64,000 nt of DNA, taken from Acetatifactor sp. (GTDB lineage: Bacteria > Bacillota > Clostridia > Lachnospirales > Lachnospiraceae). The notes under the pieces are model-generated. The model did not search any database and had not been told where the DNA came from. It worked only from the letters and a program-made list of their open reading frames with translations. Each line of letters starts with the position of its first letter. Within the stretch, counting starts at the first letter, position 1. The stretch is from the NCBI GenBank assembly GCA_045616525.1, contig JAZLGY010000095.1, positions 18,849-82,848 of the forward strand, given 5' to 3'. Made by a program: the position numbers and the translations under genes. Below, piece by piece: positions 9,784-26,167 of the stretch.

Positions 9784-10564
9784 AAGAGGATTAAAGGATG
9801 GTATTCCCATTGCCTTGGGATACTTTGCTGTAAGCTTTAGTGTTGGAATTATGGCTGTATCCGGAGGATTAAGTGTTTTACAGGGCTGTATTATGAGTCT
9901 GACCAATGTAACAAGCGCAGGTCAGTTCGCAGGTATTCAAATTATAGCGGTAGGCGGTACTTTAATTGAAATAGCGCTGACACAGTTAATTATTAATCTA
10001 AGATATGCATTAATGAGTTTGTCGTTATCACAGAAGCTGGATGACAGTGTTAAGCTTTGGCAGAGATTTGTCATTGCTTTTGCGAATACGGATGAAATAT
10101 TTGCAGTTGCTATGTCCAACAAGAAAACATTACGTTTCCCTTATATGGTTGGATTGCAATCCCTGCCTATTGTTGGCTGGGTTTCCGGCACCTTTTTAGG
10201 TAGCGTTGCCTGTAATTTGATGCCAAAGTCTGTCAGCGTTGCGATGAATGTAATGCTTTATGCAATGTTTATTGCAATTGTTATTCCGGATGCAAAGAAG
10301 AAACAGTCGGTGTTAATGGTAAGTATCTTTGCAGTGATTCTGAGCTGTTTATTTACATATGTTCCGGTTTTAAAGCTTGTTTCCGGCGGTATTTCTATTA
10401 TTCTTTGCACTGTAATCGCAGCTCTTTTGGGCGCCTTTATATGGCCCTTGGAGGATACTGAGGAGGTTTCTAAGGAAGTTTCTAAGGAGATATCTAAGGA
10501 GATTTCTTATGGAAACGTAGCTTCTAAGGAATTAGATTTGGAGCAAAAGGAGGATGTAGAATAA
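9773..10564 (+). CDS. azlC: AzlC-family branched-chain amino acid permease subunit
   Basis: 263 aa polytopic membrane protein; FKRGLKDGIPIALGYFAVSFSVG N-terminus; followed by azlD. Confidence 0.85.
   Translation: MEFKRGLKDGIPIALGYFAVSFSVGIMAVSGGLSVLQGCIMSLTNVTSAGQFAGIQIIAVGGTLIEIALTQLIINLRYALMSLSLSQKLDDSVKLWQRFVIAFANTDEIFAVAMSNKKTLRFPYMVGLQSLPIVGWVSGTFLGSVACNLMPKSVSVAMNVMLYAMFIAIVIPDAKKKQSVLMVSIFAVILSCLFTYVPVLKLVSGGISIILCTVIAALLGAFIWPLEDTEEVSKEVSKEISKEISYGNVASKELDLEQKEDVE
10461..10508 (+). repeat. about 4 tandem 15-bp repeats encoding (E/K)(V/I)SKE at the AzlC C-terminus
   Basis: GAGGTTTCTAAGGAA GTTTCTAAGGAGATA TCTAAGGAGATT... gives EEVSKEVSKEISKEIS. Confidence 0.8.
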
Positions 10565-10860
10565 TGGTTTACCTTTATATATTTACCATGGCATCTGTCA
10601 CTTATTTGATCCGAATGTTGCCCCTGACTATATTTAAAAAGAAAATTACGAATAAATATGTAAAAAGCTTTTTATATTATGTTCCCTATGCCTGCTTAAT
10701 GGCCATGACGTTTCCTTCGGTATTTTATGCAACCGGAAGTATGGTTAGTGCTATTTTAGGTGTTATGCTTGCTATTTTCCTTGCCTTAAAGGGAAAAGGT
10801 CTGGTTACGGTTTCTGTTTGCTCCTGTATACTGATTTTTATTATAGAGAGAATATTATAA
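10564..10860 (+). CDS. azlD: AzlD-family branched-chain amino acid transport protein
   Basis: 98-aa hydrophobic protein; start overlaps the azlC stop (TAATG). Confidence 0.8.
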   Translation: MVYLYIFTMASVTYLIRMLPLTIFKKKITNKYVKSFLYYVPYACLMAMTFPSVFYATGSMVSAILGVMLAIFLALKGKGLVTVSVCSCILIFIIERIL

Positions 10861-10961
10861 ATTGCTGACTCTACCTTGATTCTACTATGTTGGAATTGAT
10901 TCTACCTTACGTTGTAACATATGTTTGTATTACATATTAATTAGCGATAAGGAGAAAAAAT

Positions 10962-11375
10962 ATGATTCAAATTGCTTTTATTATTTTGATTATTGTTTTG
11001 GTTATTAGAGTGATAACTTCATCAATTATGGTCGGAGATTTTTGGTGTAGAGTTATTGGAACAACATTATGTATTACTCCTATTTTGGTATATTTGATAT
11101 TGATGTTTGCCCCTGTTAAAAATATTGCAATTTATGGACTGGCAATCAATTATTTTGGAAACACCTTAACGTATGTAGGGATTATATTTATTGTTGTTGG
11201 ATATTTGATAGCCTTTATCCTTAAAATAATTGAAAATATAAATGATATAATGATTGGAATAAAACAAATTTTTTTCATGTATGGGGCAAATGGGATTGTA
11301 TTCATTATAATGGGACCTTTATATTCATTACTTGGTTATGTTTTGAGTCAAGATTTTATAAGGATGATTCAATAA
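10962..11375 (+). CDS. hypothetical polytopic membrane protein
   Basis: 137 aa, about 4 hydrophobic segments; AAGGAG RBS. Confidence 0.6.
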   Translation: MIQIAFIILIIVLVIRVITSSIMVGDFWCRVIGTTLCITPILVYLILMFAPVKNIAIYGLAINYFGNTLTYVGIIFIVVGYLIAFILKIIENINDIMIGIKQIFFMYGANGIVFIIMGPLYSLLGYVLSQDFIRMIQ

Positions 11376-11668
11376 AGGCATATGACTATAATTAGAGTTT
11401 TTTATGATTTGGTCATAGGTATTGCTTATACTTCATGACCTGGATTCGAATATTTTGAATTAAAGTCATATATATGCATGTGAGTATTATTTACAAATGA
11501 TTACAAATGATTTCATGATTTACATTTACGTTGTGGATTATATATTAAATGTAACCTAATGCTAGATTTTACTTACTATATCAATGAAAGATGTAAATTA
11601 TATAGTGATTTTGCCGATAAACAAATAGGATGGTACATCCACATAATAAAAAAGAGAGGTATAAAACA

Positions 11669-11887
11669 ATGGATATTAAGAAACAGATTACAGACGCTGT
11701 AGAGAAGGTTACAAAGGACGCTAAGCTTCAGGAAGAATTTAAGAAGGATCCTGTAAAGGCTGTAGAAAAGGCAACTGGCGTTGATCTTCCGGACGATGTT
11801 GTAAAGCAGATTGTTGATGGAATCAAGACAAAGCTTGCAGTAGACAAGATTGGCGGCGTTGCAGATAAGATTAAGGGACTTTTCTAA
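11669..11887 (+). CDS. small hydrophilic K/D/V-rich hypothetical protein
   Basis: 72 aa from the ATG at 11669 (AGAGAGG RBS); the antisense ORF 11576-11905 is considered spurious. Confidence 0.6.
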   Translation: MDIKKQITDAVEKVTKDAKLQEEFKKDPVKAVEKATGVDLPDDVVKQIVDGIKTKLAVDKIGGVADKIKGLF

Positions 11888-11890
11888 GGA

Positions 11891-12304
11891 ATGACTATTA
11901 AGCATAGAAAGACATCCAGAGTTATCGGCATTTTATTAATCTTTTTTGGAATCATATATTTTTTATTTGCTATTCCTGTGTTTATGAGTGGACCGGAAGA
12001 GGTTACTGCAACGGTAACTCGTGTCTACAAGATGCATGGCCATAACATAAATAATGGCAAACAAAGAGAATATTATTCCTGTGTATGGCAGGATTTAGAA
12101 GGCAAGGAAGTAACAGAAACAAAGCTTTATAACAGTAATCATTATAAAGAGGGGGATCAATTGGCTGTTCAGGTCGATAGAAAAACCCACACAAAACTGT
12201 ATTCAAGCTTTATTCCTTCTTTTGTTGTTAGCGCTGTGTTTTTCATGATTGGAGTTTGGCTTTTTGTTATTACAAGAAAAAGGAATATCAAAACTCAACT
12301 ATAA
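11891..12304 (+). CDS. DUF3592-like membrane protein (TM, beta-rich domain, TM)
   Basis: 137 aa; N- and C-terminal TM segments flanking a soluble domain. Confidence 0.5.
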   Translation: MTIKHRKTSRVIGILLIFFGIIYFLFAIPVFMSGPEEVTATVTRVYKMHGHNINNGKQREYYSCVWQDLEGKEVTETKLYNSNHYKEGDQLAVQVDRKTHTKLYSSFIPSFVVSAVFFMIGVWLFVITRKRNIKTQL

Positions 12305-12308
12305 TAAG

Positions 12309-12338
12309 TAGCTCAGGTCTTACGGCTTGAGCTATTTT
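12309..12338 (+). terminator. rho-independent terminator
   Basis: TAGCTCAGG-tcttacgg-CTTGAGCTA followed by TTTT. Confidence 0.65.
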
Positions 12339-12391
12339 AAGTCTATTATGAGTCGATTTGGGGAATATAATTGCCGAATGTTTTTGGTATT

Positions 12392-12691
12392 TACGGAGTA
12401 TATTGAATAGTTAATCAGTGCTCCGTACGTTTTTGACATTCTTTACGGAGAAAATATCAATTTATATTTATTGCTCCGTATGTTTTTCTTGTTTTATACG
12501 GAGCAATTTTAAAATAATTCAAAAAGCTCCGTATAAAAATTCGATTTATTACGGAGCCTTTTATAATTATATAAAAATTCTCCGTAAAATGTTTCAATAT
12601 TATACGGAGATATTAGTGAAAAGTCAATTATCTCCGTAAATGACTCCAAAATCATACGGAGAAATAACATAATTACTGTATATGCTCCGTA
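12392..12691. repeat. phased array of 12 invariant heptamers, alternately TACGGAG and CTCCGTA, period 52-53 bp
   Basis: TACGGAG starts at 12392, 12444, 12497, 12550, 12603 and 12655. CTCCGTA starts at 12421, 12474, 12527, 12580, 12632 and 12685. CTCCGTA-N16-TACGGAG spacing is exact five times, and the spacers are unrelated AT-rich sequence. Confidence 0.9.
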
Positions 12692-13022
12692 ATATGCATG
12701 CGAAATTTTCTTAAATATGGATTTATGTATCGATTCCACTGTGCTAATAGTCACTCTGTCAGCAATATATTGGGTCTTGAATTGTTATATTATATATGTC
12801 ATGTAGAATAGTTACGAATTGTTTTATGATTTAAGGGGCTGGTTTACAAATTGATTAGTAATTTGATCTCTATTGTTCTAGAGTATGGAAAATATAATAA
12901 ATATTTAAGAGATAGAGCAGGCAATTTCTGATATAGTATATTTTAGTGACAGCTTATATGATCATTAGCAATAGTTTGTATGATAATCAGTATAGTTTAT
13001 ATTATAATTCGACATCACATAT

Positions 13023-13379
13023 ATGATCATTAATAATCACTTATACTATAAAAATCATCTATATTATATTGGAGAAAACGATAAGACAGCAATTATTTGG
13101 CCCATTTTATTAATTGTGTTGGGGATTTTTCTGGCTGTTAAATTTATTGGAATAGGAACAAAGCTTGATGAAACTGATTTGGAATATTGTAATGAATTGA
13201 AGGAATTAGGATTATCAGCAGAGGAATTATGGACACGTTCCAAGGAGTATGATCTAAGAAAAATGTACCGTATAGCTTTAGAGGTAAGGCTTAAGGAGCT
13301 TTCTAAGGATCGTGTGCCGGAGTGGTTTATGAGGGACTGTTATAAGGTTAGACTACCGGAATTAAAGGATTTTAAATAA
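13023..13379 (+). CDS. hypothetical single-pass membrane protein
   Basis: 118 aa, one TM segment (IIWPILLIVLGIFLAV); no convincing RBS, so it may not be expressed as annotated. Confidence 0.4.
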   Translation: MIINNHLYYKNHLYYIGENDKTAIIWPILLIVLGIFLAVKFIGIGTKLDETDLEYCNELKELGLSAEELWTRSKEYDLRKMYRIALEVRLKELSKDRVPEWFMRDCYKVRLPELKDFK

Positions 13380-13399
13380 ATTGTATAAGGTGTCAAAAT

Positions 13400-13963
13400 A
13401 TGAGATTAATAATGCTAAATAAAGAACAGTTGGCCGAGATTTATCGTACTAAAATGGTCAATGATTTTCCGCCAATGGAATTAAAACCCTTAGACAGAAT
13501 GTTTGAAGCATATGACAAGGGGAATTATGCATGTTATGCGATGATCAATGATGCAGAAGAAGTGTTAGGGTATGCATTGTTTGTAAAGATGGACAATCAT
13601 TATCTTTTTGATTATTTTGCAGTCAACATGGATCGCCGAAATGAAGGATTAGGAAGTAGCTTTTTAGAACTGATTCATGCGGAATTTAAAGATAGTGACA
13701 GCGTGATTGGTGAAGTAGAAGATCCGGAATATGCAGAAAATGAGACTGACAAATCACTTCAGACCAGAAGACTTAATTTTTACCTGAGAAATGGATATAT
13801 TAATACAGGAATTAAGGTTCGAATGTTTGATGTAGATTACATTGTTCTGGAAATGGATTTGGGCAAAAATGATTCCAAAGAAAAAATTGCTGATTTATAT
13901 CTGGCTCATTACAAAGCCATGCTTCCGGATGAATTATTTAGACAGAAGGTAATGGTAAAATAG
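13400..13963 (+). CDS. GNAT-family N-acetyltransferase
   Basis: 187 aa; acetyl-CoA motif A-like RRNEGLGSSFL. Confidence 0.7.
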   Translation: MRLIMLNKEQLAEIYRTKMVNDFPPMELKPLDRMFEAYDKGNYACYAMINDAEEVLGYALFVKMDNHYLFDYFAVNMDRRNEGLGSSFLELIHAEFKDSDSVIGEVEDPEYAENETDKSLQTRRLNFYLRNGYINTGIKVRMFDVDYIVLEMDLGKNDSKEKIADLYLAHYKAMLPDELFRQKVMVK

Positions 13964-15819: not shown

Positions 15820-17772
15820 TTGAAAAGAAAAATAGCTGTTTTTTCAAATGCATGGAGTGAGAAAAGTTTAAGTGACGCGTTGGAAGGAATTAAAGAGCGT
15901 GCACAAGAAGAAGATTTTGATATTTTTGTCTTTTTGAGTCATGCTGCACCGGGAAATGATGCCAACGAACAACGAGAGGAAAAAAGAATATACCAATTAC
16001 CTGATTTGGAAGATTTTGATGGTGGAATTATTTTTTCTTCAGCCATGAATTTTCATGATTTGGTTGAAGATATTTGGCAAAGAGCTCGTAAGGCAGGGGT
16101 ACCATTAGTAAGTATAGGCGAAAAACTTGAAGGATGTCCACTGGTTGAATTTAATAATAAAGACAGTATGAAACAGCTTGTTGAACATTTAATTACTGTT
16201 CATGGAATAAAGGATATTGAGTTCATTGCCGGTATGAAGGATAGCGTTGATTCAAATATCAGAATTGAAGCAGCCAGAGAAGTTATGCAAAAATATAATT
16301 TAGTTTTGGATGAACCCAATCTTCATTATGGTGATTGGAGTGTTTTTGGTGCTATGAAAACTACGGCGGATATTATAGAAAGCCGAGAGGGAAAACTTCC
16401 AGATGCATTTATATGTGCCAATGACACACTGGCCATGAGTGTTTGTGTAGAATTAGAAAATCATGGATTTCATGTTCCGAACGATACAGTGGTTACTGGT
16501 TATGATCGTATTTATGATGGACAAATATTTGATCCGTCTCTTTGTACTGTAGGTCGTGATGACAAATTATCCGGTAAAATGGCGTTTGATTCATTATTGC
16601 TTGCTATCCAAGAACAAAAAAACGAAGATATAATTATTGACAGTGAATTTATTCCAAATCAAAGTTGTGGTTGTGTAAATTCTAATGCGAATAAACTTCG
16701 TTCTGATGAATGTAAAAGAGCTTTTTATAATAAAGTAGATTCACTTAATTTTGGTTGGAGTAACAGTTGGCTTTCGTCAAGAGTTTTAGATAGTAAGAAT
16801 CCTAAGGATATTCGTAATAATTTAGAGGAACACTTTAAGAATAGTCATATGTTTAAAAATGGTACAGCCTTCATTTTAGAGGATCCAATTGCAAAAATGT
16901 ACTTTGCAGGTAATGTTACCAATGATTTCGAGAATATTAGTTATTCTGAAGAATTAGAAGTTATGGTAGCAGTGGATCATTTTAATGTGATTGATAAAAG
17001 TAATACAATGCCACGTAAGCAAATGATTCCGGGATATAAAAAAATTGAAAATAATAGCAGATTATTTATATTTTTACCTATTCATTTTAAAGATCGTGTT
17101 TTTGGATATGCTGTAATAGAAGATTTCGTAGAAGGAATAGCAAATAGAAAGATTAAAATTTTTGTAGATAGTTTTAATCAGACAATAGACAAATTGAAAC
17201 AAAATATTGCACTTGAACAATTAAATGCTCGATTACAGGAACTTTATACAAAGGATGCATTAACCGGGATGTACAATCGATTTGGATTTGCAACGATTGG
17301 TAATTTAATGTACGAGAATTGCAGAGAGCATGAGAATGAAATGATTCTTATGTTCACAGATATTAACAGAATGAAGCTGATTAATGACTATTATGGTCAT
17401 TTGCAAGGGGATAAAGCAATTAAAACGACTGCAGAAGCCATTCTTGAATCAATTCCTGAAGATTGGATTGCTATTCGTTTTGGTGGTGACGAGTTTCTTA
17501 TTATGGGACAAAGTAATCATGCAGATAATATTGATGCTGTTAAGAATAAGATTGTTAATGAGGTTAAAAATAAAGGAAAAGAAGCGCAATATCCATTTTA
17601 TTTAAGTGTAAGCTGTGGATACTTAAAATTTGTTCCTGATTCAAATAAAACATTGGACAGTTATATAAAACAGGCAGATGAGGCCATGTATGAAATAAAG
17701 GCCTATATGCATTCCTGTGACCAGGAACTAAGAGATTTTGTAGAGAAGTGTAAAGGAAATACTTTAGAATAA
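15820..17772 (+). CDS. diguanylate cyclase with N-terminal LacI/PBP type-I sugar-binding sensor domain (no HTH, no TM)
   Basis: RFGGDEFLIMG active site; N-terminal half has the periplasmic-binding-fold motif FICANDTLAMSV. A TTG start at 15820 is preferred (AAGGTGA RBS 5 nt upstream); the alternative TTG is at 15802. Confidence 0.85.
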   Translation: MKRKIAVFSNAWSEKSLSDALEGIKERAQEEDFDIFVFLSHAAPGNDANEQREEKRIYQLPDLEDFDGGIIFSSAMNFHDLVEDIWQRARKAGVPLVSIGEKLEGCPLVEFNNKDSMKQLVEHLITVHGIKDIEFIAGMKDSVDSNIRIEAAREVMQKYNLVLDEPNLHYGDWSVFGAMKTTADIIESREGKLPDAFICANDTLAMSVCVELENHGFHVPNDTVVTGYDRIYDGQIFDPSLCTVGRDDKLSGKMAFDSLLLAIQEQKNEDIIIDSEFIPNQSCGCVNSNANKLRSDECKRAFYNKVDSLNFGWSNSWLSSRVLDSKNPKDIRNNLEEHFKNSHMFKNGTAFILEDPIAKMYFAGNVTNDFENISYSEELEVMVAVDHFNVIDKSNTMPRKQMIPGYKKIENNSRLFIFLPIHFKDRVFGYAVIEDFVEGIANRKIKIFVDSFNQTIDKLKQNIALEQLNARLQELYTKDALTGMYNRFGFATIGNLMYENCREHENEMILMFTDINRMKLINDYYGHLQGDKAIKTTAEAILESIPEDWIAIRFGGDEFLIMGQSNHADNIDAVKNKIVNEVKNKGKEAQYPFYLSVSCGYLKFVPDSNKTLDSYIKQADEAMYEIKAYMHSCDQELRDFVEKCKGNTLE

Positions 17773-17806
17773 ATTTGACATTTTGATATTACTTGATGAG
17801 GTTTTT

Positions 17807-18517
17807 ATGCTGAGGTTTGTATTTGTTATTTGTGTTTCTATTTTTTCTATTATTATTTTTTTATGGGGAGTTTCATATATTGAAAGACATGGAAGTCAGT
17901 ATACTGAAGAATACCGATATGAAATAGCACAAAGAGTTGTTGACCGAATAAAAAAGAATGGTTTTATAGAAACAAAGGTATATGGAAAGGAAAATTTACC
18001 AAATACAGGCGGCTATATAATGTACTCTAATCATCAGGGAAAGTATGATGCTTTAGGTATCATATACGGACATGAAAAGCCTTGCACCGTGATGATTGAT
18101 GAGAAACGTTCCAGGCTGTTAATTGCGGATCAATTTATCAGTTTAATTAAAGGCTGTCGAATTGATAGAACCAGTATAAAAACACAAATAAAAGCTATAA
18201 AACAGGTTACAGATGAGGTTTCTAAGGGTAGAAGATATATTATTTTCCCTGAAGGTGGTTATGAACATAATCATAATAATGTTCAGGAATTTTTGCCCGG
18301 GGCATTTAAATGTGCAATAAATTCAGGTGTTCCGATTGTTCCTGTTGCACTGATTGATTCTTACAAGCCTTTTGAGATTAATTCTTTAAGAAAAGTAACA
18401 ACACAGGTTCATTATTTACCGCCCATTGAGTATGAACAATATAAAGATATGAAGACATCTGAATTGGCCGAATTTGTGAGAAAACAGATTGTAGATAAGA
18501 TTGAATGTGTTATATAA
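17807..18517 (+). CDS. 1-acyl-sn-glycerol-3-phosphate acyltransferase-like (PlsC family)
   Basis: HX4D motif (NHQGKYD) and FPEGG; N-terminal TM; ATG at 17807 with a GAGG RBS. Confidence 0.8.
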   Translation: MLRFVFVICVSIFSIIIFLWGVSYIERHGSQYTEEYRYEIAQRVVDRIKKNGFIETKVYGKENLPNTGGYIMYSNHQGKYDALGIIYGHEKPCTVMIDEKRSRLLIADQFISLIKGCRIDRTSIKTQIKAIKQVTDEVSKGRRYIIFPEGGYEHNHNNVQEFLPGAFKCAINSGVPIVPVALIDSYKPFEINSLRKVTTQVHYLPPIEYEQYKDMKTSELAEFVRKQIVDKIECVI

Positions 18518-18520
18518 TAT

Positions 18521-19600
18521 CTAACTGTTCTTATGGATTAAGCTATCTGCATAGGTAGCTGCTTTCATACGTCGTTGTTCAGTCATGTCTGCGTAATGCT
18601 TGGCGGTTGTTTGTACATTAGAATGTCCCAATGCATCTGCTGTTAAATAAATATCGCCGGTTGCTAAATATAGATTTGTACCATATGTAGATCGTAATTT
18701 GTGTGGTGATATTTTATTACCAACACCTAATGCAGCATTTGCATATTTCTTTATCATACGTTCCACAGCACTGACAGAAATTCGATTCCCTTTTTGTGAG
18801 AGGAAGAGGGCTCTTTCGGCTTCATCCGGATTGAAATGACTTCTGGCTGTATCAATATATAAATATAAAGCGTCTAAAACACCACTGCTAAGGTAAACAT
18901 TTTGAATTTTATTACCTTTTCGTGTAACTAATATACAGCTGTTAATATCATTTATGTCTTCTAGGTTAATGCCAACAAGCTCGGATACACGGATTCCGGT
19001 ACCTAAAAATAGCGTTAAAATTGCGTTATCTCTACACTTTAAAAAATCATTGTTATTTTTTTGACGATCTATTAAACCGACGCCTTTATCCAAGGAATTA
19101 TACATGCTTTCTTGTTCTTTATCAGCAAGTCTTATAATTGGTTTTTCCTTTATTTTAGGCATATCAACGCCAATGCATGGATTATCCTCAAGGCGATGAT
19201 GTATATTTAAGTAATTATAAAGGCTACGTATAGTTGATAATTTACGCGCCTTGGAGGCAGCTGAATTTGAACGAATTTGACCGTCATCTGTATGATAAGC
19301 TGTTAAAAATGACAAATAATCCGAGATATTTCGATAGGTTAATTTTGATAAAATATCCAGGTTAATATCGATAGGCTTTTTCCCGGAAAAAACGTGAGAA
19401 TCCATGCATAAATAGTTAAAGAAAAGCTGCAAATCACAGGCATATGCATAACAGGTTCTAGGCTGGAATTTTTCAGAGGATAATTTATCATTAATAAAGT
19501 CCGTGCAATAATCAGGTAATGATGCAAGGATTTCTCTTGATTTTTCCAAATTACGAACACGTTGTTCATAAGAATATGTATGTTGCTTAGTATTTGCCAT
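18521..19600 (-). CDS. tyrosine-type site-specific recombinase/integrase
   Basis: 359 aa; catalytic set GIRVSEL (Arg), HKLRSTYGT (His-x-x-Arg), LGHSNVQTTAKHYA (His, Tyr). Confidence 0.9.
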   Translation of the reverse strand: MANTKQHTYSYEQRVRNLEKSREILASLPDYCTDFINDKLSSEKFQPRTCYAYACDLQLFFNYLCMDSHVFSGKKPIDINLDILSKLTYRNISDYLSFLTAYHTDDGQIRSNSAASKARKLSTIRSLYNYLNIHHRLEDNPCIGVDMPKIKEKPIIRLADKEQESMYNSLDKGVGLIDRQKNNNDFLKCRDNAILTLFLGTGIRVSELVGINLEDINDINSCILVTRKGNKIQNVYLSSGVLDALYLYIDTARSHFNPDEAERALFLSQKGNRISVSAVERMIKKYANAALGVGNKISPHKLRSTYGTNLYLATGDIYLTADALGHSNVQTTAKHYADMTEQRRMKAATYADSLIHKNS

Positions 19601-19778
19601 GGATTTTCCTTTCTATAACAGATTCCCTGATTTTGGGGAAGAACTGCTATTCTAATCAAAATTATAGCTAAAATGCATATAAACTATTATTTAACGGCGT
19701 TTTATATCTATCTCTCATTATACAAAAATCGATATATAAAATCAAGAGGTAAAAAACAGATATGCAGAAAATTCTAAA

Positions 19779-19803
19779 TAGCCCCAGCTTAAAGCCGGGG
19801 CTA
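19779..19803 (-). terminator. hairpin terminator downstream of the surface-protein gene
   Basis: TAGCCCC-agcttaaagcc-GGGGCTA with T-rich flanks on both strands. Confidence 0.6.
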
Positions 19804-19828
19804 TTTTATATTATTCATATATTACATA

Positions 19829-21724
19829 TTATTGAAGCATGGATTTCCAAGCAATTCCTAAATCTTCCCATCCGATAGAAACAAGATATTCATATTCCTT
19901 CTTATTAGAAGTATAGAAATATTCTCCTAACTTAGCATTAGGATTCTTAACTCTGTAAGCTGCTTTATCACCATCTGAGTACCACGCGATACCTTCATCG
20001 TCCCATCCATTAGCTACAAGTGCATCGATTTCTGTTTTATTAACTGTATAGTAATGATCACCGGTTTTAGGATTGTATGCTCTGTAAACAGCTGCGCCAT
20101 ACTCAGGTGCATAGAATTCAATACCTTCATCCTTCCATCCGAGATTTACAAGATAATCCTTCTCGAATTCACTTGCTGTATAGAAATGAATACCATTATT
20201 TGGATTGTAAACTCTGTAAATAGCCTTGGTTACAATTTCTTTTACAGGTTCATTTTCTTCAACAGGAGTTTCTTCCGGAGCAGGTGTTTCATCCGGTGTC
20301 TCAGCAGGTGTTTCATCCGGTGTCACATTTGGTGTTTCATCCGGTGTCACATTTGGTGTTTCGTCCGGTGTTTCATCCGGTGTTTCGTCAGGTGTTTCAT
20401 CCTGTATTCTAGGATCTTTTACTACTATATAATCTCTAAGCATTGATGTTGAATATCTGTCTTCAAGATCTTGATATACTTCATATTTTAAGAAGCCCTC
20501 CGCATTTTCACCATTTGTACTGAAGAAACATTCTGCTTTTACATCCGGTTCATAAATATAAAACATATAGAACTTTGTCTTTGAACCTACCCATTCATCT
20601 TTTTTTACAATATCGCCTTCTTTAAATGTAGTAAAATCTGTATATTCATGTAATACTTCAACAGTAATTGTTGCAGACTTATCACTGCCATCCTTTGCTG
20701 TAACAATTATTTGGGCTGTTCCATTTGATACAGCTGTTACTACTCCATCTTCAACTGTTGCAACAGCTGGATTATTTGATAACCAAGATAATGTTTTATC
20801 GGTTGCATCATCTGGGGTAACAGTTACAACTAATGTCTCTGTATCACCTATTTCCATTTTTAAATAAGTATTATTAACGGTTATATTTTCTATAGGTACA
20901 ACTGGGTTACCAATTTTAAATGCCTTAACTGCAGTAGCTTCTCCTACAGTAAGGGATGCATAGTAATATCCATCTGCGGAAGGTGTTCCTTCAACTAACG
21001 TTCCTCCGGTGGTTGTATCATTCGAGTTAACTTTATAGAATTTAACGTCGGATTCAGATATATTTTCATCTGTTGCAGCGGTAAATGCATCTAAGTTATC
21101 AATACCGGAATAGTTCGGAGAGGTTGCGGTGAGGGTAAGGGATACTTTATTATCACTCAGTTCACAATTTCCATCTTCGTTAGCGCATGTTGCAACAATC
21201 GTATTCTTTGCTGTATCAGGAACAGAATAGGTGAATGAATGAGTATGTGATGGAGACAATTCTCGACTAAACACTATATCGCCAAACCAATCTACATATG
21301 CTAAATAATGAACGCTTTTAACCTGATTATTTTCAAAATCAACACTTAAATAGTCACCACCATCATAAGTCCATTTATTCTCACTTTCTATGAAAATAAG
21401 TTCTTGATCTTCTGAAACATGAACCTTGACAACCCAGTCTTCTAATTTTTGACAATCCTCATCCTCACCTCCCATCATTACTATAAAATCTTTAAATGAC
21501 CTATCTTCGCCAAACATCTCACTACCACCCATCAGTTCTTCACTGACAGCATCTACTTTTTGGCACAATGCTATCTCATTTGCTGTTGGTTCGTCAGCTG
21601 GAGTATTAGCTTTAACATCAGTACTAATTCCCATAACCATAGAAAAAACCATAGTTGCTGTAACTACCATTGCAGTCAGTTTATTTTTCAAAAACTTGCC
21701 TTTCATTTTTTTCCTTTTGTTCAT
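19829..21724 (-). CDS. secreted surface protein: signal peptide, Big_2 Ig-like domain, Pro/Thr/Asp/Glu linker, three C-terminal YRxYNPNxGxHFYT...GWxDEGI repeats
   Basis: 631 aa; MNKRKKMKGKF...ANT signal peptide; LSWLSNNPAVATVEDGVVTAVSNGTAQIIVTA (Big_2); DETPDETP... linker; three DUF5648-like repeats; no LPXTG. Confidence 0.85.
   Translation of the reverse strand: MNKRKKMKGKFLKNKLTAMVVTATMVFSMVMGISTDVKANTPADEPTANEIALCQKVDAVSEELMGGSEMFGEDRSFKDFIVMMGGEDEDCQKLEDWVVKVHVSEDQELIFIESENKWTYDGGDYLSVDFENNQVKSVHYLAYVDWFGDIVFSRELSPSHTHSFTYSVPDTAKNTIVATCANEDGNCELSDNKVSLTLTATSPNYSGIDNLDAFTAATDENISESDVKFYKVNSNDTTTGGTLVEGTPSADGYYYASLTVGEATAVKAFKIGNPVVPIENITVNNTYLKMEIGDTETLVVTVTPDDATDKTLSWLSNNPAVATVEDGVVTAVSNGTAQIIVTAKDGSDKSATITVEVLHEYTDFTTFKEGDIVKKDEWVGSKTKFYMFYIYEPDVKAECFFSTNGENAEGFLKYEVYQDLEDRYSTSMLRDYIVVKDPRIQDETPDETPDETPDETPNVTPDETPNVTPDETPAETPDETPAPEETPVEENEPVKEIVTKAIYRVYNPNNGIHFYTASEFEKDYLVNLGWKDEGIEFYAPEYGAAVYRAYNPKTGDHYYTVNKTEIDALVANGWDDEGIAWYSDGDKAAYRVKNPNAKLGEYFYTSNKKEYEYLVSIGWEDLGIAWKSMLQ
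20270..20405 (-). repeat. tandem 12/24-bp repeats encoding the (D/N)(E/V)TP linker
   Basis: Reiterated GGTGTTTCATCC / GGTGTCACATTT units on the plus strand. Confidence 0.85.
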
Positions 21725-22415: not shown

Positions 22416-22889
22416 TTACATCTGATCTAATAAATTAACCATTTCAACTGCAGATAATGCACAATCATAACCCTTGTTGCCAGCCTTGCTTCCGGCACGT
22501 GCAATTGCCTGTTCAATGTTTTCTGTTGTTACGATACCAAAAAGTACAGGTACTTTTGAGGAAAGTGAAACCTGAGCGATTCCCTTGGATACTTCATTAC
22601 ATACATAATCGTAATGAGAAGTATCTCCACGAATTACTGCACCAACACAAATAATAGCATCATATTTTCCTGAAAGAGCCATCTTCTGAGCTACAATGGG
22701 GATTTCAAATGCACCGGGTACCCAAGCAGCTGTAATATTCTTCTCATCTACTCCATGACGAACAAGTCCGTCTACGGCACCACCAAGAAGCTTATTAACG
22801 ATGATTTCGTTAAATCTTGAAGCAACAATACCAACCTTCATACCTTTCTTTGCAACTACTTTGCCTTCTAATAAATTGATTTCTTTCAT
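22416..22889 (-). CDS. ribH: 6,7-dimethyl-8-ribityllumazine synthase
   Basis: 157 aa; [25 protein letters not shown] motifs. Confidence 0.95.
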
Positions 22890-22938
22890 GTCTTTTCTCC
22901 TTTTCGTTGTAATGTATTTGAATTATTTTATCTACAAA

Positions 22939-24153
22939 TTATAAATTTAATTCGTTAAAAATATGGCCCATTTTTTCTTTTTTGGTACGCATATATTTAA
23001 TATCAAATTGCTGTGGTTCGATTTCTATAGCTACTCTTTCATTGATTTTTAATCCAAAACCTTCCAAGCCATATACTTTTTCAGGGTTATTGGTTAATAA
23101 ACGAAGGCTCTTTACACCTAAATCAGATAATATTTGAGCGCCTACCCAGTATTCTCTCAAATCGGGTGCAAAACCAAGCTTTACATTGGCTTCTACTGTA
23201 TCATAGCCCTGTTCCTGGAGTTCATAAGCCTTTAATTTATTGATTAAGCCAATTCCGCGACCTTCCTGACGCATATAAAGTAAAATACCCTTGCCTTCTC
23301 TTTCGATTTGTTCCATTGCAGATTGTAACTGTTCGCCACAATCACATCTTTTGGAACCAAAGGTATCACCTGTAAGGCATTCTGAATGAACACGACATAA
23401 AATATTCTCACCGTCCCCAATATCACCCTTTAATAATGCAACATGATGTTCGCCGGTAATATCATTTATATATCCAATCATTCTGAAATCACCATACTTA
23501 GTAGGTAATTTTGCATCAGCCATTTTCTGAACATGTTTTACATGAACATGGATATAATCCTGTAATGCCTTGATGGTAATATATTTTAAATGATATTCTT
23601 TCGCTAGCTTATATATATTCTCAGCCTTCATCATGGTACCGTCTTCTTCCATGATTTCACAGCAAACACCACATTCCTTTAAGCCGGCCAGCTTCATTAA
23701 ATCAACTGTAGCCTCTGTGTGGCCATTACGCACCAATACACCGCCTTCTTTGGCAACTAGAGGAAATACATGTCCCGGATGTCTAAAGTCGCTGGGTTTG
23801 GCATTATCATCACAGCAACTCATCATTGTCATGGAACGTTCAGCGGCTGAAATACCGGTTGTTGTATTAATATGATCGATAGAAACGGTAAATGCAGTTT
23901 GATGATTATCAGTATTATTCTGTACCATTGCCGGAAAACCAAGCTTATTTGCAAGGCTGATACTCATAGGTGTACAAATCAATCCTTTTGCATATTTGGC
24001 CATGAAGTTGATGTTTTCCTGTGTTGCAAATTCACCGGCACAAATCATATCACCTTCATTTTCTCTGTTTTCATCATCAGAGACTAGGATGATTTTACCA
24101 TTTTTTAAATCCTCTAATGCTTCTTCCACTGTATTGTAAGTAAAGTTTTCCAT
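22939..24153 (-). CDS. ribBA: bifunctional 3,4-dihydroxy-2-butanone-4-phosphate synthase / GTP cyclohydrolase II
   Basis: 404 aa; [10 protein letters not shown] (DHBPS) and [11 protein letters not shown]...RCDCG (GCH II zinc site). Confidence 0.95.
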
Positions 24154-24165
24154 GAATTTCTCCTT

Positions 24166-24810
24166 TTAAAAATCTAAGTCTTTTAGCATGTCATAGGTTA
24201 AGGTACTCTTCTCTTCTTTAGGGGCAGGAAACATTAACTTTTGAACATATTTTCCTACGATGTCATTTTCTAAATTTACAAGGGAGCCTTTTCTCTTGTG
24301 CAATAATGTGGTTTCTTTCGCTGTATGTGGAATGATGGAAACCTTGAAGCACTTATGATCAACGTAAGCAACTGTTAGGCTGATTCCATCTATACATATG
24401 GATCCTTTTTCAACAATAAGCTTTAGAATTTCATCAGAAGTATTTATTGTAACCCAAACAGCATTTTCTTCTTCTTTGTATTCTGTAATTTCACCGGTAC
24501 CATCAATATGACCTGATACGATATGACCACCAAATCTTCCATCTGCAGCCATTGCTCTTTCGAGGTTAACTTTGTCACCTTTTTTTGCATTGGATAAAGC
24601 AGAGCGTCTTACTGTTTCGGCCATAATGTCTGCAGTAAATCCGTCCTTTTGTAAACTGGTTACAGTTAGACATATTCCATTAACAGCAATAGAATCTCCT
24701 ATGTGCGTGTTTTCTAAAACTTTTTTGGCTTGAATGGCAATTGCTCCCGAAGTACCTTTTATGGAAAGATTCTTTATTATTCCGGTCTCTTCTACAATTC
24801 CTGTAAACAT
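24166..24810 (-). CDS. ribE: riboflavin synthase alpha subunit
   Basis: 214 aa; MFTGIVEE N-terminus, duplicated GxSLTV barrel motifs. Confidence 0.95.
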   Translation of the reverse strand: MFTGIVEETGIIKNLSIKGTSGAIAIQAKKVLENTHIGDSIAVNGICLTVTSLQKDGFTADIMAETVRRSALSNAKKGDKVNLERAMAADGRFGGHIVSGHIDGTGEITEYKEEENAVWVTINTSDEILKLIVEKGSICIDGISLTVAYVDHKCFKVSIIPHTAKETTLLHKRKGSLVNLENDIVGKYVQKLMFPAPKEEKSTLTYDMLKDLDF

Positions 24811-25907
24811 TATGCCTCCTCCATTCGTTTCACGTAGGTTAATAATACATCCTGATCAATTTGTTTTATTGATTTTAAGGTATATAAAGAAGCATCCTGC
24901 ACTTCTACTATTCCTTGTCCCTCTACCGGACTTTTGGCATCCTGGCCACCGAATATTTTGGGCGCGATAAAGACCTCTACTTGATTAATCAGCTTGTTTC
25001 TGGTAAAGGTATCGTTAATAATTCCACCGCCTTCTACCAAAATACTATCAATGCCCTCAGTGCCTAAATATTCTACTAATTTTTCAATATCTACTTCTCC
25101 ATTTTTATCAGGTAAACATTTAACAGTTAAACCTAACTTAGTTAATTCGTTGGCTTTTTCTTCACAAGAATTGGCGCAAATAATATAGGTTTTATATTCT
25201 TTCGCTGTTTTAACAATCTGACTGTCTAATGGAATACGAAGCTTGCTGTCACAGATGATACGAATAGGACTTTTTAAGCCATCAATTCTGACATTTAACA
25301 TGGGATCATCTTTTAATACGGTGCCTATACCAACTAGTATACCCATGTATTTATGTCTCATTAATTGAACTTCGTGGCGTGCTTTTTCACCTGTTATCCA
25401 TTTGGATAAGCCTGCCTTGGTTGCAATCTTACCATCCATAGTCATGGCATATTTCATTACCATATAAGGTCTCTTGGTTGTAATATAATGAAAGAATACA
25501 GGATTAATCTCATCACACTCTTCTCTCATAAAGTCCTGAATGACCTCTATTCCATGCTCCTGTAAAAGCTTTGCCCCTTTTCCTGAAACCAAAGGATTGG
25601 GATCTCTTGAGCCAATCACAACACGAGCAATCTTATTTTCTATGATTGCTTCTGTACATGGAGGTGTTTTTCCGTAGTGACAACATGGCTCTAATGTAAC
25701 ATAAATGGTTGCACCTTCAGCTGATTCGGTCAGATGCTTAAAGGCATTTCTTTCTGCATGAAGCTCACCACATCTTTCATGATAACCTTCACCAATGATC
25801 CTGCCATCCTTTACAATAACAGCACCAACCATTGGATTCGGATTGGTATATCCCATTGCTTTTTTTGCAAGCTCTATGGCTCGTAACATGTATTGCTTCT
25901 CTGCCAT
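24810..25907 (-). CDS. ribD: bifunctional riboflavin biosynthesis deaminase/reductase
   Basis: 365 aa; HAERNA...LEPCCHYGKTPPC deaminase zinc motif plus a C-terminal reductase domain. Confidence 0.95.
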   Translation of the reverse strand: MAEKQYMLRAIELAKKAMGYTNPNPMVGAVIVKDGRIIGEGYHERCGELHAERNAFKHLTESAEGATIYVTLEPCCHYGKTPPCTEAIIENKIARVVIGSRDPNPLVSGKGAKLLQEHGIEVIQDFMREECDEINPVFFHYITTKRPYMVMKYAMTMDGKIATKAGLSKWITGEKARHEVQLMRHKYMGILVGIGTVLKDDPMLNVRIDGLKSPIRIICDSKLRIPLDSQIVKTAKEYKTYIICANSCEEKANELTKLGLTVKCLPDKNGEVDIEKLVEYLGTEGIDSILVEGGGIINDTFTRNKLINQVEVFIAPKIFGGQDAKSPVEGQGIVEVQDASLYTLKSIKQIDQDVLLTYVKRMEEA

Positions 25908-25924: not shown

Positions 25925-26148
25925 TAAAAAGCCCTGAAGTTAAAACTTCAGGGCTAAACATCAAAAATATGATCATAGAAACATATCAATATGGATATAT
26001 TGATACATTCATTTTGTTTCTTTCATCCAGACTTTCATATCAAAGATATGTACATAAAATGTAACTGTCGGCCTCGGAGTTTCACCGAATCTGCCTTACG
26101 GCTCGCGGGCTATACCGCCGGTAGGGAATTACACCCTGCCCTGAAACA
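25925..26148 (-). promoter_or_regulatory. FMN riboswitch (RFN element) with terminator expression platform
   Basis: Minus-strand aptamer 26148-26015: UUCAGGGCAGGGUGUAAUUCCCUACCGGCGGUAUAGCCCGCGAGCC...GCCGACAGU...AAAGUCUGGAUGAAAGAAACA. Terminator AGCCCTGAAGTT-tt-AACTTCAGGGCT plus TTTTT at 25955-25925. Confidence 0.92.
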
Positions 26149-26167
26149 TATTTAATTTTCATTTAGA

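What the first reader, a model, noticed from the sequence alone, without database searches (positions are those of the whole stretch)
12392..12691. Twelve invariant, alternately oriented TACGGAG heptamers phased every 52-53 bp in a 718-bp non-coding gap
**Layout.** Six TACGGAG copies (starts 12392, 12444, 12497, 12550, 12603, 12655) interleave with six CTCCGTA copies (12421, 12474, 12527, 12580, 12632, 12685). The CTCCGTA-N16-TACGGAG spacing is exactly 16 nt in all five complete pairs. TACGGAG-N22/23-CTCCGTA fills the rest. The unit length of 52-53 bp is close to five helical turns, so every site faces the same side of the duplex.

**Conservation pattern.** All 12 heptamers are perfect, whereas the AT-rich spacers share no sequence. 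Some pairs extend to 8-11 bp, for example TTGCTCCGTAT...ATACGGAGCAA. That pattern argues for selection on the heptamer sequence and its phasing. It does not fit a recent tandem duplication, and it does not fit a structure-only hairpin, which would tolerate compensatory changes.

**Context.** By eye I saw only one other TACGGAG in the window (37229, inside aroB). The array starts about 55 bp after a terminator and ends about 330 bp before the next, weakly supported, gene. No DNA-binding protein gene is adjacent.

**Why it is unassigned.** It does not fit a CRISPR array, since there is no conserved full-length repeat and no cas gene. It does not resemble plasmid iterons, or any Firmicutes operator I recognise.

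**Hypotheses.**
1. A phased landing pad for a dimeric DNA-binding protein, such as a centromere-like, silencing or nucleoprotein-filament site.
2. A transcript carrying five or six tandem hairpins with identical 7-8 bp stems, acting as a protein sponge or processing substrate.
3. A lineage-specific REP/BIME-like extragenic palindrome cluster.
Basis: seen in the sequence. Interest (0 to 1): 0.85.

Follow-up and report, generated by a model that had tools for sequence, protein, structure and literature searches.

The report
Dispersed heptamer-bounded palindrome arrays in Lachnospiraceae
The twelve invariant heptamers are real and kept by selection, and they belong to an apparently undescribed family of intergenic repeat arrays scattered through a few Lachnospiraceae genomes, most like REP/BIME elements and probably docking sites for an unknown protein.

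Summary
Twelve perfect TACGGAG/CTCCGTA copies lie at 12392-12691. The CTCCGTA-to-TACGGAG gap is always 16 nt and the other gap is 22-23 nt. Everything else in the array has drifted to chance-level similarity.

The locus is not unique. The same heptamers, spacing and 52-53 bp period recur in 24 stretches of three Lachnospiraceae genomes assembled from metagenomes (MAGs), which represent two lineages, and in one metagenome contig. All arrays are intergenic. They sit beside unrelated housekeeping genes and usually abut a gene's 3' end.

Across these arrays the gap is 16 nt in 94 of 94 cases, against 22, 23 or 24 nt for the other gap. Orthologous arrays show 0/70 heptamer changes against 30/179 elsewhere, and their copy number varies. 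No base-pair covariation supports either hairpin model.

Array ends favour a 36-37 bp palindromic unit, TACGGAG-N22/23-CTCCGTA, joined by 16-bp linkers. There is no Rfam family, no cas gene, no Nop-domain (tas) gene, no Y1 transposase and no recurrent neighbouring gene.

My best reading is a new REP/BIME-like dispersed repeat family. Its heptamers would be half-sites for a sequence-specific protein encoded elsewhere, bound in phase every five helical turns. RNA-hairpin and transposase-substrate readings remain open.

The parts
12392..12691 (.). Whole array: six palindromic units joined by five 16-bp linkers, with a period of 52-53 bp.
   Evidence: All 12 heptamers are perfect. The window holds 14 copies against 2.3 expected.
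12392..12427 (.). Unit 1: TACGGAG-N22-CTCCGTA.
12444..12480 (.). Unit 2: TACGGAG-N23-CTCCGTA.
12497..12533 (.). Unit 3: TACGGAG-N23-CTCCGTA. The palindrome extends outward to TTTATACGGAGC...GCTCCGTATAAA.
   Evidence: (inverted repeat I3).
12550..12586 (.). Unit 4: TACGGAG-N23-CTCCGTA.
12603..12638 (.). Unit 5: TACGGAG-N22-CTCCGTA. The arms extend to TACGGAGATA...TATCTCCGTA.
12655..12691 (.). Unit 6: TACGGAG-N23-CTCCGTA.
12428..12443 (.). First of five linkers of exactly 16 bp. The others are 12481-12496, 12534-12549, 12587-12602 and 12639-12654.
   Evidence: this gap is 16 nt in 94 of 94 cases across all arrays; linker sequences are near chance similarity.
12372..12378 (.). Decayed half-site TGCCGAA, 13 nt before the first TACGGAG. 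It is a relic of a further unit at the array edge.
   Evidence: direct-repeat family D2 aligns 12374-12391 with 12423-12440.
12306..12337 (+). Context only: terminator-like hairpin AAGTAGCTCA...TGAGCTATTT after the 137-aa membrane-protein gene (11891-12304).
   Evidence: inverted repeat I11; conserved in the relative with 82% protein identity (L026).

Best explanation
**What it is.** The array is one locus of a dispersed family of non-coding repeats found in a few Lachnospiraceae chromosomes. The building block is a 36-37 bp palindromic unit, TACGGAG-N22/23-CTCCGTA. The fuller half-site consensus is Y-TACGGAG-A followed by A/T. Units are strung head to tail with a linker of exactly 16 bp, so equivalent sites recur every 52-53 bp, which is five turns of the double helix.

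**How I think it works.** The heptamers are half-sites read on double-stranded DNA by a sequence-specific dimeric or higher-order protein encoded elsewhere in the genome. Neighbouring protein units touch across the rigid 16-bp linker. The array therefore loads a phased row of proteins just downstream of genes. This would be a BIME-like structural or boundary element, for example a transcription or topology barrier or a recombination hot spot, rather than a gene-specific operator.

**How arrays change.** They grow and shrink by whole-unit slippage or unequal exchange, and they decay from their edges.

**Shown here.**
- The anatomy of the unit and array.
- Dispersal to many intergenic sites.
- Selection on the heptamers and on the 16-bp spacing.
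- Absence of base-pair covariation.
- Copy-number turnover between relatives.

**Inferred, not shown.**
- That it reads duplex DNA.
- What the bound array does.

**Confidence.** The figure of 0.4 is for the whole statement, mechanism included. That this is a dispersed, selected repeat family I hold at about 0.9.
For: **Dispersal.**
- The two-unit pattern occurs in 24 stretches of 3 MAGs out of 185,579 species representatives.
- It occurs in 1 metagenome contig and in no viral contig.
- All arrays are intergenic and beside unrelated genes such as guaB, ilvD, ABC transporters and AraC, LysR or PadR regulators. No neighbour is shared by all arrays.

**Sequence constraint rather than structure constraint.**
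- The logo over 86 units is WWWW-T-CTCCGTA-R...Y-TACGGAG-A-WWWW.
- The R and Y positions vary independently: G-C 31, G-T 19, A-C 16, A-T 14.
- No covariation appears across either gap.
- Decayed copies keep TACGG/CCGTA and are not compensated.

**Spacing.** The gap is 16 nt in 94 of 94 cases, against 22 (20 cases), 23 (79) and 24 (1) for the other gap. The mean period is about 52.8 bp, or 5.0 turns at 10.5 bp per turn.

**Selection.**
- In the window, 84 of 84 heptamer bases are perfect while the rest is at chance similarity.
- Orthologous arrays L011 and L025 differ at 0/70 heptamer columns against 30/179 other array columns, Fisher p = 4e-5. Their unit counts are 6, 5 and 3 when L017 is included.

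**Unit definition.**
- By my tally, 26 of 37 untruncated array ends finish on a complete TACGGAG...CTCCGTA unit.
- Ten of the other 11 ends have a degenerate partner at the correct distance.

**Placement.** Arrays abut gene 3' ends. About 5 lie between convergent genes, about 9 between tandem genes and 0-1 between divergent genes.

**Precedent, from my own knowledge.** The NikR operator GTATGA-N16-TCATAC shows that a tetramer can read half-sites 16 bp apart. BIMEs bind gyrase and IHF.
Against: - No candidate binding protein was identified, and nothing DNA-binding is adjacent in the window.
- A tolerant spacing within the unit (22-24) combined with a rigid spacing between units (16) is the reverse of what most dimeric operators show.
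- The 22/23-nt segment is more self-complementary than shuffles, with mean z of -1.2 over 26 arrays and p about 1e-6. Duplex binding does not require this; a hairpin or cruciform form would.
- Young arrays have a polarity. The 22/23-nt segment is T-rich on the sense strand of the upstream gene in about 11 cases against 3-4. This hints at a transcript-level role or at directional insertion.
- The family's very patchy distribution fits an accessory or selfish system as well as a host function.
Confidence: 0.4

Rival explanations
1. REPIN/REP-like non-autonomous mobile element. The 36-37 nt unit folds as a hairpin in single-stranded DNA. A dedicated single-copy transposase-type enzyme, analogous to a RAYT, recognises the invariant stem base and copies or moves units. 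Self-targeted insertion next to an existing unit would give arrays with a fixed 16-nt offset.
For: - The repeats are dispersed, extragenic and placed at gene 3' ends.
- The unit is palindromic and its centre is self-complementary.
- Arrays within one genome are internally homogeneous but differ from each other, and copy number changes between close relatives.
- A subfamily (L001, L008, L022) carries a shared leader hairpin, giving a mosaic element like a BIME.
- Synteny between L011 and L017 breaks exactly at the array edge.
- In L003 two arrays flank a gene for a protein with a PD-(D/E)XK nuclease-like domain. Its homologue sits next to the L009 array in another genus.
Against: - The window array is old, with interiors randomised, yet all 12 heptamers are intact. 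That needs selection in place, not recent copying.
- No solitary units occur in about 165 kb of flanking sequence or in the 64-kb window, unlike REPs.
- No Y1/RAYT family appears among the most frequent families in 134 flanking ORFs.
- There is no GT(A/G)G head outside the palindrome, and units are in direct rather than alternating orientation (PMC2817692).
- The nuclease-like protein is absent from the window. A homologue in MT839528 has no array.
Confidence: 0.22
2. Transcript-level element. Read-through or independent transcription yields RNA with tandem hairpins, whose stems are UACGGAGA/UCUCCGUA. These would protect upstream mRNAs from 3' exonucleases, act as weak tandem terminators, or titrate an RNA-binding protein or nuclease.
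For: - Arrays lie directly after stop codons or terminators. Their T-rich strand matches the sense strand of the upstream gene in about 11 cases against 3-4.
- In that orientation, CTCCGTA-N16-TACGGAG is followed by A and then TTTT.
- Folding potential is strong, with z of -11.7 and -12.1.
- Several units extend to 13-17 pairs with G.U pairs on the T-rich strand.
- REPs are known to stabilise mRNA.
Against: - No compensatory changes appear in more than 100 units, and A-C combinations are common at the flanking pair.
- An RNA role gives no reason for an exact 16-nt linker.
- The polarity is absent from the old window array.
- Loops of 16-23 nt make poor terminators.
- There is no Rfam match, even below threshold.
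- Both strands fold equally well.
Confidence: 0.2
3. Guide-RNA array of a CRISPR-like or TIGR-like system whose effector is encoded elsewhere. The 16-nt or 22/23-nt segments would serve as guides.
For: - Short conserved motifs alternate regularly with variable segments of fixed length.
- TIGR arrays are described as lacking the sequence conservation that annotation tools need (bioRxiv 10.64898/2026.09.09.750476).
Against: - Variable segments within young arrays are near-copies of each other, so they arose by duplication and not by acquisition.
- TIGR units are 36 nt, with two distinct 8-12 nt repeats and 9-12 nt spacers flanked by box C (CCA) and box D (UG), and they lie next to a tas gene (PMC12045711). 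None of this is seen here.
- Arrays lie at about 16 separate loci per genome, with no shared leader or gene.
- No cas or Nop-domain gene lies near the window array.
Confidence: 0.04
4. Neutral relic of a tandem duplication, or a decayed coding repeat.
For: Young arrays in the Ca. Pseudolachnospira avium MAG clearly expand by tandem duplication.
Against: - Heptamers are invariant while the rest is saturated.
- The same heptamers and spacing occur in genomes of 35% to 61% G+C.
- A 52-53 bp period is not a multiple of three.
- CTCCGTA followed by a purine (A or G in 81 of 86 units) places a stop codon in shifting frames on both strands.
Confidence: 0.01

Closest known systems
REP/BIME elements of Gammaproteobacteria (palindromic units, REPINs, RAYT transposases)
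   Same: - Units are short imperfect palindromes of about 35-40 nt.
- They are extragenic, at gene 3' ends or between convergent genes.
- They are clustered at regular spacing and dispersed at many loci.
- They are mosaic with other short motifs and serve as protein-binding platforms.
   Different: - Only 8-9 bp at each end of the unit is conserved.
- Units are in direct rather than alternating orientation.
- There is no GT(A/G)G head.
- No solitary units were seen and no RAYT was found.
- Hosts are Firmicutes, and there are tens rather than hundreds of copies.
- In-place selection is evident.
Neisseria intergenic mosaic elements (NIME) with dRS3 repeats ATTCCC-N8-GGGAAT (from my own knowledge)
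   Same: - A short invariant inverted repeat with fixed internal spacing alternates with variable repeat units.
- These form intergenic arrays and are linked to recombination or integration.
   Different: - The motif, the spacing and the host phylum all differ.
- dRS3 is a known phage integration target, and no such link is shown here.
F-plasmid centromere sopC: 12 tandem 43-bp repeats, each with a 7-bp inverted repeat bound by SopB (from my own knowledge)
   Same: - It is a tandem array of units that each carry a 7-bp inverted repeat.
- Copy number is similar.
- It is read by a dimeric DNA-binding protein.
   Different: - sopC is a single locus next to sopAB, with fully conserved units and closely spaced arms.
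- Here arrays lie at many chromosomal loci, have no partition genes, and have arms 22-23 bp apart.
CRISPR arrays
   Same: A palindromic repeat of 36-37 nt is regularly interspaced by a segment of fixed length.
   Different: - The repeat interior is not conserved.
- The 'spacers' are only 16 nt and are copies of each other in young arrays.
- There are no cas genes and no leader.
- Each genome carries many small arrays.
TIGR-Tas arrays (PMC12045711)
   Same: Two short alternating conserved motifs separate short variable segments. Overall sequence conservation is low.
   Different: - TIGR has a 36-nt unit, two unrelated repeats, 9-12 nt spacers with box C and box D, and an adjacent tas gene.
- Here the period is 53 nt and the two motifs are reverse complements of each other.
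- No tas gene is nearby.
Streptococcus pneumoniae BOX elements and Staphylococcus aureus STAR repeats (from my own knowledge)
   Same: - They are dispersed intergenic repeats of Firmicutes.
- They have a tandemly amplified module or short conserved motifs separated by variable spacers.
- Their function is unknown.
   Different: There is no sequence relationship. BOX modules are conserved along their whole length, and STAR motifs are direct repeats.

Membership tests
REP/BIME-RAYT | Extragenic, dispersed and multi-copy. | tested here: met
   - 24 stretches in 3 MAGs, about 16 independent arrays in one of them.
- All arrays are intergenic.
- Copy number is tens, not the more than 100 typical of REPs (PMC2817692).
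REP/BIME-RAYT | Imperfect palindrome able to form a hairpin, with palindromy kept by complementary changes. | tested here: inconclusive
   - The 8-bp arms are perfect.
- The centre is more self-complementary than shuffles, z -1.2.
- No covariation in a fixed register was found.
REP/BIME-RAYT | GT(A/G)G head 5' of the palindrome. | tested here: not met
   GTAG occurs only as part of CTCCGTA followed by G, in 51 of 86 units. That places it inside the arm, not as a head outside the palindrome.
REP/BIME-RAYT | Alternating orientation of units in clusters. | tested here: not met
   Units are direct repeats with a common T-rich polarity.
REP/BIME-RAYT | A rayt (Y1 transposase) gene flanked by the repeats. 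| not testable with these tools
   - Whole genomes could not be scanned.
- None appears among the most frequent Pfam families of 134 flanking ORFs.
- None appears in the annotated parts of the window.
CRISPR | Direct repeats conserved along their full length. | tested here: not met
   Only 7 + 7 nt of each 36-37 nt unit are conserved in the window.
CRISPR | Unique spacers of about 26-72 nt. | tested here: not met
   Linkers are 16 nt and are mutually similar in young arrays.
CRISPR | Adjacent cas genes. | tested here: not met
   Pfam scans of 9.8-15.7 kb, 0.2-9.8 kb and 15.8-28.2 kb of the window show none. No recurrent family appears in the loci.
TIGR-Tas | [quoted passage not shown] | tested here: not met
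   - The period is 52-53 nt and the variable segments are 16 and 22-23 nt.
- The motifs are mutual reverse complements, without CCA or UG boxes (PMC12045711).
TIGR-Tas | Adjacent tas gene with a Nop domain. | tested here: not met
   None lies near the window array. No shared neighbour exists in the loci.
Plasmid or phage centromere (sopC or parC type) | A single array next to partition genes. | tested here: not met
   There are many chromosomal loci, no par genes nearby, and no match in plasmids or phages.
Type III toxin-antitoxin RNA repeats (ToxI-like) | Near-identical tandem repeats directly upstream of the toxin gene. | tested here: not met
   Window units have diverged. Downstream genes differ between loci.
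Any Rfam RNA family | A match at or near the family's gathering score. | tested here: not met
   - One search finds only the FMN riboswitch, elsewhere in the window.
- Searches give only weak hits to generic AT-rich hairpins.

The most novel reading that the evidence does not exclude
The arrays could be the cis component of an undescribed system encoded elsewhere in the genome and restricted to a few Lachnospiraceae. Two versions are open.

- A nuclease or recombinase might use the heptamer-bounded units as recombination or integration sites. One candidate lead is the protein with a PD-(D/E)XK nuclease-like domain found beside arrays in two genera.
- Alternatively, the arrays might be processed into RNAs of about 53 nt whose fixed 16-nt segment has a guide or decoy role.

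Either version would be a new kind of repeat-protein partnership rather than a REP analogue.
Probability: 0.1. Interest if true: 0.85.

Novelty: new variant of a known kind. Interest (0 to 1): 0.55.

Why it matters
Dispersed extragenic repeats are well studied in Proteobacteria, but I know of few described examples in gut Clostridia. This family has an unusually clean signature: two invariant heptamers and a rigid 16-bp ruler survive complete drift of everything else, across genomes of 35% to 61% G+C. That makes the unknown reader of the motif directly fishable, because one 53-bp oligonucleotide serves as bait. It also gives a simple search pattern for annotating these arrays, which break short-read assemblies: several arrays lie at contig ends. 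If it is a chromosome-structuring or barrier protein, it would add a new cis element at gene 3' ends.

Tried and rejected
- **Phage or plasmid origin.** BLAST of the region and of the arrays found nothing relevant. The viral two-unit scan gave 0 hits. Single-unit viral hits are homologous coding sequences without arrays.
- **Known RNA family.** None matched.
- **Hairpin proven by covariation.** I tested pairing across N16 and across N22/23, at flanking and internal positions, weighted by locus. No signal appeared.
- **Common neighbouring gene.** All-against-all BLASTP and Pfam over 134 ORFs found only generic families.
- **Conserved leader or tail.** There is only a loose purine-rich tail (CCAGGAAAA-like) and a subfamily-specific leader hairpin.
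- **Orthologous array in relatives of the window.**
  - The contig of the 82%-identical neighbour protein ends 70 nt after the gene.
  - Relatives with a 67-71% identical GNAT acetyltransferase have different neighbouring genes.
  - The 118-aa downstream ORF has no homologue.
- **Promoter or terminator scan.** No excess was found.
- **sigma-54 or ECF-sigma promoter readings of the unit.** I rejected these by inspecting the spacing.
- **Replication-terminus role.**
  - A GC-skew switch lies 6 kb away.
  - No dif-like site was found.
  - Arrays in other genomes lie beside many unrelated genes.
- **Literature.** No paper describing the motif was found.

Full report
**1. The observation.**

Reading 12100-13300 and an exact search confirm six TACGGAG and six CTCCGTA copies at the stated coordinates.
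- The window has 14 copies in all, against 2.3 +/- 1.4 in shuffles, and 0 of 100 shuffles reached 14.
- The two copies outside the array are at 37229 and 50948.
- CTCCGTA-N16-TACGGAG is exact five times. The other gap is 22, 23, 23, 23, 22, 23.
- Apart from the heptamers the units have drifted to chance. The 16-nt segments are 39% alike against 33% for shuffles, and the 22/23-nt segments are 42% against 40% and 36% against 34%.
- Tandem Repeats Finder detects only 2.2 copies.
- No other pair with up to two mismatches exists in the 64 kb, except a chance-level match in hisD.

**2. It is a dispersed family.**

A scan of one genome per species (185,579 species) for two adjacent units found 24 stretches in only three genomes assembled from metagenomes (MAGs).
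- Candidatus Pseudolachnospira avium has 17 stretches, about 16 arrays, because L004 and L018 are the two sides of one array.
- A closely related uncultured Lachnospiraceae MAG has 2. It is 96% identical to P. avium over 400 nt of flank.
- An Acetatifactor MAG has 5 stretches holding 6 arrays.
- The metagenome collection gave one more contig. Viral contigs gave none.
- The loci range from 40% to 61% G+C, and the window region is 35%.

Every array has the same heptamers and the same 52-53 bp period. Inside a young array the units are near-copies, which shows tandem amplification. Between arrays the interiors differ.

**3. Anatomy.**

- Over 86 units the logo is WWWW-T-CTCCGTA-R...Y-TACGGAG-A-WWWW.
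- The CTCCGTA-to-TACGGAG gap is 16 nt in 94 of 94 cases. The other gap is 22 (20 cases), 23 (79) or 24 (1).
- Decayed copies keep TACGG/CCGTA and vary in the outer two bases.
- By my tally, arrays usually start with TACGGAG and end with CTCCGTA: 26 of 37 untruncated ends. Ten of the remaining 11 ends show a degenerate partner at the right distance.
- This favours a 36-37 bp palindromic unit, TACGGAG-N22/23-CTCCGTA, joined by 16-bp linkers. The window then holds six complete units.
- The 22/23-nt centre is more self-complementary than shuffles, with mean z of -1.2 over 26 arrays and p about 1e-6. The linker is not, at z -0.3.
- Young arrays are polar. The centre reads A-TTTT-GGGCA-nTTT-GyCnC-ATTTT on one strand.

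**4. No support for a structure-only element.**

- The purine after CTCCGTA and the pyrimidine before TACGGAG vary independently: G-C 31, G-T 19, A-C 16, A-T 14.
- Neither pairing model shows covariation at informative positions.
- The 23-mers show none in a fixed register.
- Both strands fold equally well.
- Rfam has nothing, even below threshold.

**5. Selection and turnover.**

- Orthologous arrays L011 and L025 differ at 0 of 70 heptamer columns but at 30 of 179 other array columns, Fisher p = 4e-5.
- Unit number is 6, 5 and 3 in L011, L025 and L017.
- In L017 synteny with L011 ends exactly at the array edge.
- In the window, 84 of 84 heptamer bases are intact although the rest is saturated. 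Recent copying cannot explain this; selection in place can.

**6. Context.**

- Arrays are intergenic and next to unrelated genes: IMP dehydrogenase, dihydroxy-acid dehydratase, ABC transporters, AraC, LysR and PadR regulators, and radical SAM enzymes.
- They abut a gene's 3' end. About 5 lie between convergent genes, about 9 between tandem genes and 0-1 between divergent genes. The T-rich strand is the sense strand of the upstream gene in about 11 cases against 3-4.
- In the window the array follows the terminator-like hairpin of a 137-aa membrane-protein gene. It lies in a low-G+C stretch with orphan small ORFs.
- No DNA-binding protein, transposase, cas gene or Nop-domain gene is nearby.
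- The closest relatives available do not share this gene order.

**7. Interpretation.**

The data require a sequence-specific reader of both heptamers and a ruler for the 16-bp linker.

I favour a protein reading duplex DNA in a phased row, for three reasons:
- the period is five helical turns;
- the constraint is on sequence rather than on pairing;
- the spacing is rigid.

In this reading the array is a BIME-like structural or boundary element at gene ends. My confidence in the mechanism is about 0.4. My confidence that this is a dispersed, selected repeat family is about 0.9.

Three points weigh against the duplex reading:
- the self-complementary centre;
- the polarity of young arrays;
- the reversed pattern of tolerant spacing within the unit and rigid spacing between units.

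These keep two rivals alive.
- **A REPIN-like element** handled as a DNA hairpin by a transposase-type enzyme.
- **A transcript-level hairpin array.**

A guide-RNA reading, CRISPR-like or TIGR-like, fails each defining feature I could test (PMC12045711).

**8. Leads.**

- Three P. avium arrays share a leader, the hairpin GCCRGAG-N16-CTCYGGC followed by CTGTCYGGWAATAT. The element is therefore mosaic.
- A 264-274 aa protein lies beside arrays in both P. avium (L009) and Acetatifactor (L003, between two arrays).
  - Its C-terminal PD-(D/E)XK nuclease-like domain resembles the candidate defence proteins PDC-S68 and PDC-S69.
  - The two copies are 43% identical and their surroundings are not syntenic.
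  - It is absent from the window, and a homologue elsewhere has no array. It remains only a lead.

**9. Verdict.**

The feature is real and under selection. I found no Rfam family or paper that describes it. It is best filed as a new variant of the REP/BIME kind of extragenic repeat. It is not a member of the REP-RAYT family, because the head motif and alternating orientation are not met and a RAYT gene could not be tested.

Noticed in passing
window 17000-21000: GC skew flips from about +0.23 to about -0.15, and gene orientation turns from all-plus to all-minus at about 18.5 kb. A Xer-like tyrosine recombinase gene lies at the junction (18521-19600, minus strand; best NCBIfam hits XerS, XerC and XerD, all below cut-off). 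This could be a replication terminus or an inversion boundary. No B. subtilis-like dif site was found.
   Followed up: partly
window 26011-26152 (minus strand): An FMN riboswitch (103.5 bits) lies upstream of the riboflavin operon ribD-E-BA-H at 22416-25907.
   Followed up: no
window 12943-13068: Just upstream of and overlapping the start of the orphan 118-aa ORF (13023-13379) there are 22-bp (x3.1) and 18-bp (x2.1) tandem repeats and two ATGATCAT palindromes, at 12958 and 13023. This may be an operator or promoter region. The ORF has no homologue in 5.8 billion proteins.
   Followed up: partly
window 10800-13400: A low-G+C stretch (26-29% against 35-40% around it) lies between azlCD and a GNAT acetyltransferase gene. 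It holds small membrane-protein ORFs and an 85-aa protein with a weak match to NHLP leader peptides (20 bits, cut-off 51). It may be an acquired islet. Relatives with a 67-71% identical GNAT have different neighbouring genes.
   Followed up: partly
window 12328-12358; L026 1100-1140: An 11-nt tandem repeat, TGAGTCTATTA x2.9, lies between the terminator-like hairpin and the array. The relative with 82% protein identity has a similar TTTCGAGTCTG repeat there, and its contig ends at that point.
   Followed up: no
window 20283-20402 and 10450-10507: There are 12-bp tandem repeats inside coding sequence: x10 in the Big_2/DUF5648 surface-protein gene and x4.8 in azlC.
   Followed up: no
L001 1507-1536, L008 1721-1750, L022 1945-1974: A second repeated element occurs in Ca. 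Pseudolachnospira avium: the hairpin GCCRGAG-N16-CTCYGGC, with compensatory changes in its inner stem, followed by CTGTCYGGWAATAT. It lies 70-90 nt before three of the arrays.
   Followed up: partly
L003 5315-6136; L009 329-1120: An uncharacterised 264-274 aa protein has a C-terminal PD-(D/E)XK nuclease-like domain (PADLOC PDC-S68/S69, HEAT_CxxC_PD-DEXK). It lies 88-138 bp from arrays in two genera, and in L003 it sits between two arrays.
   Followed up: partly
L002, L004, L009, L018 (starts); L006, L011, L013, L019 (ends): Many P. avium contigs begin or end inside an array, and L004 and L018 carry the two halves of one array. These repeats therefore break short-read assemblies, and their true copy number is underestimated.
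   Followed up: no
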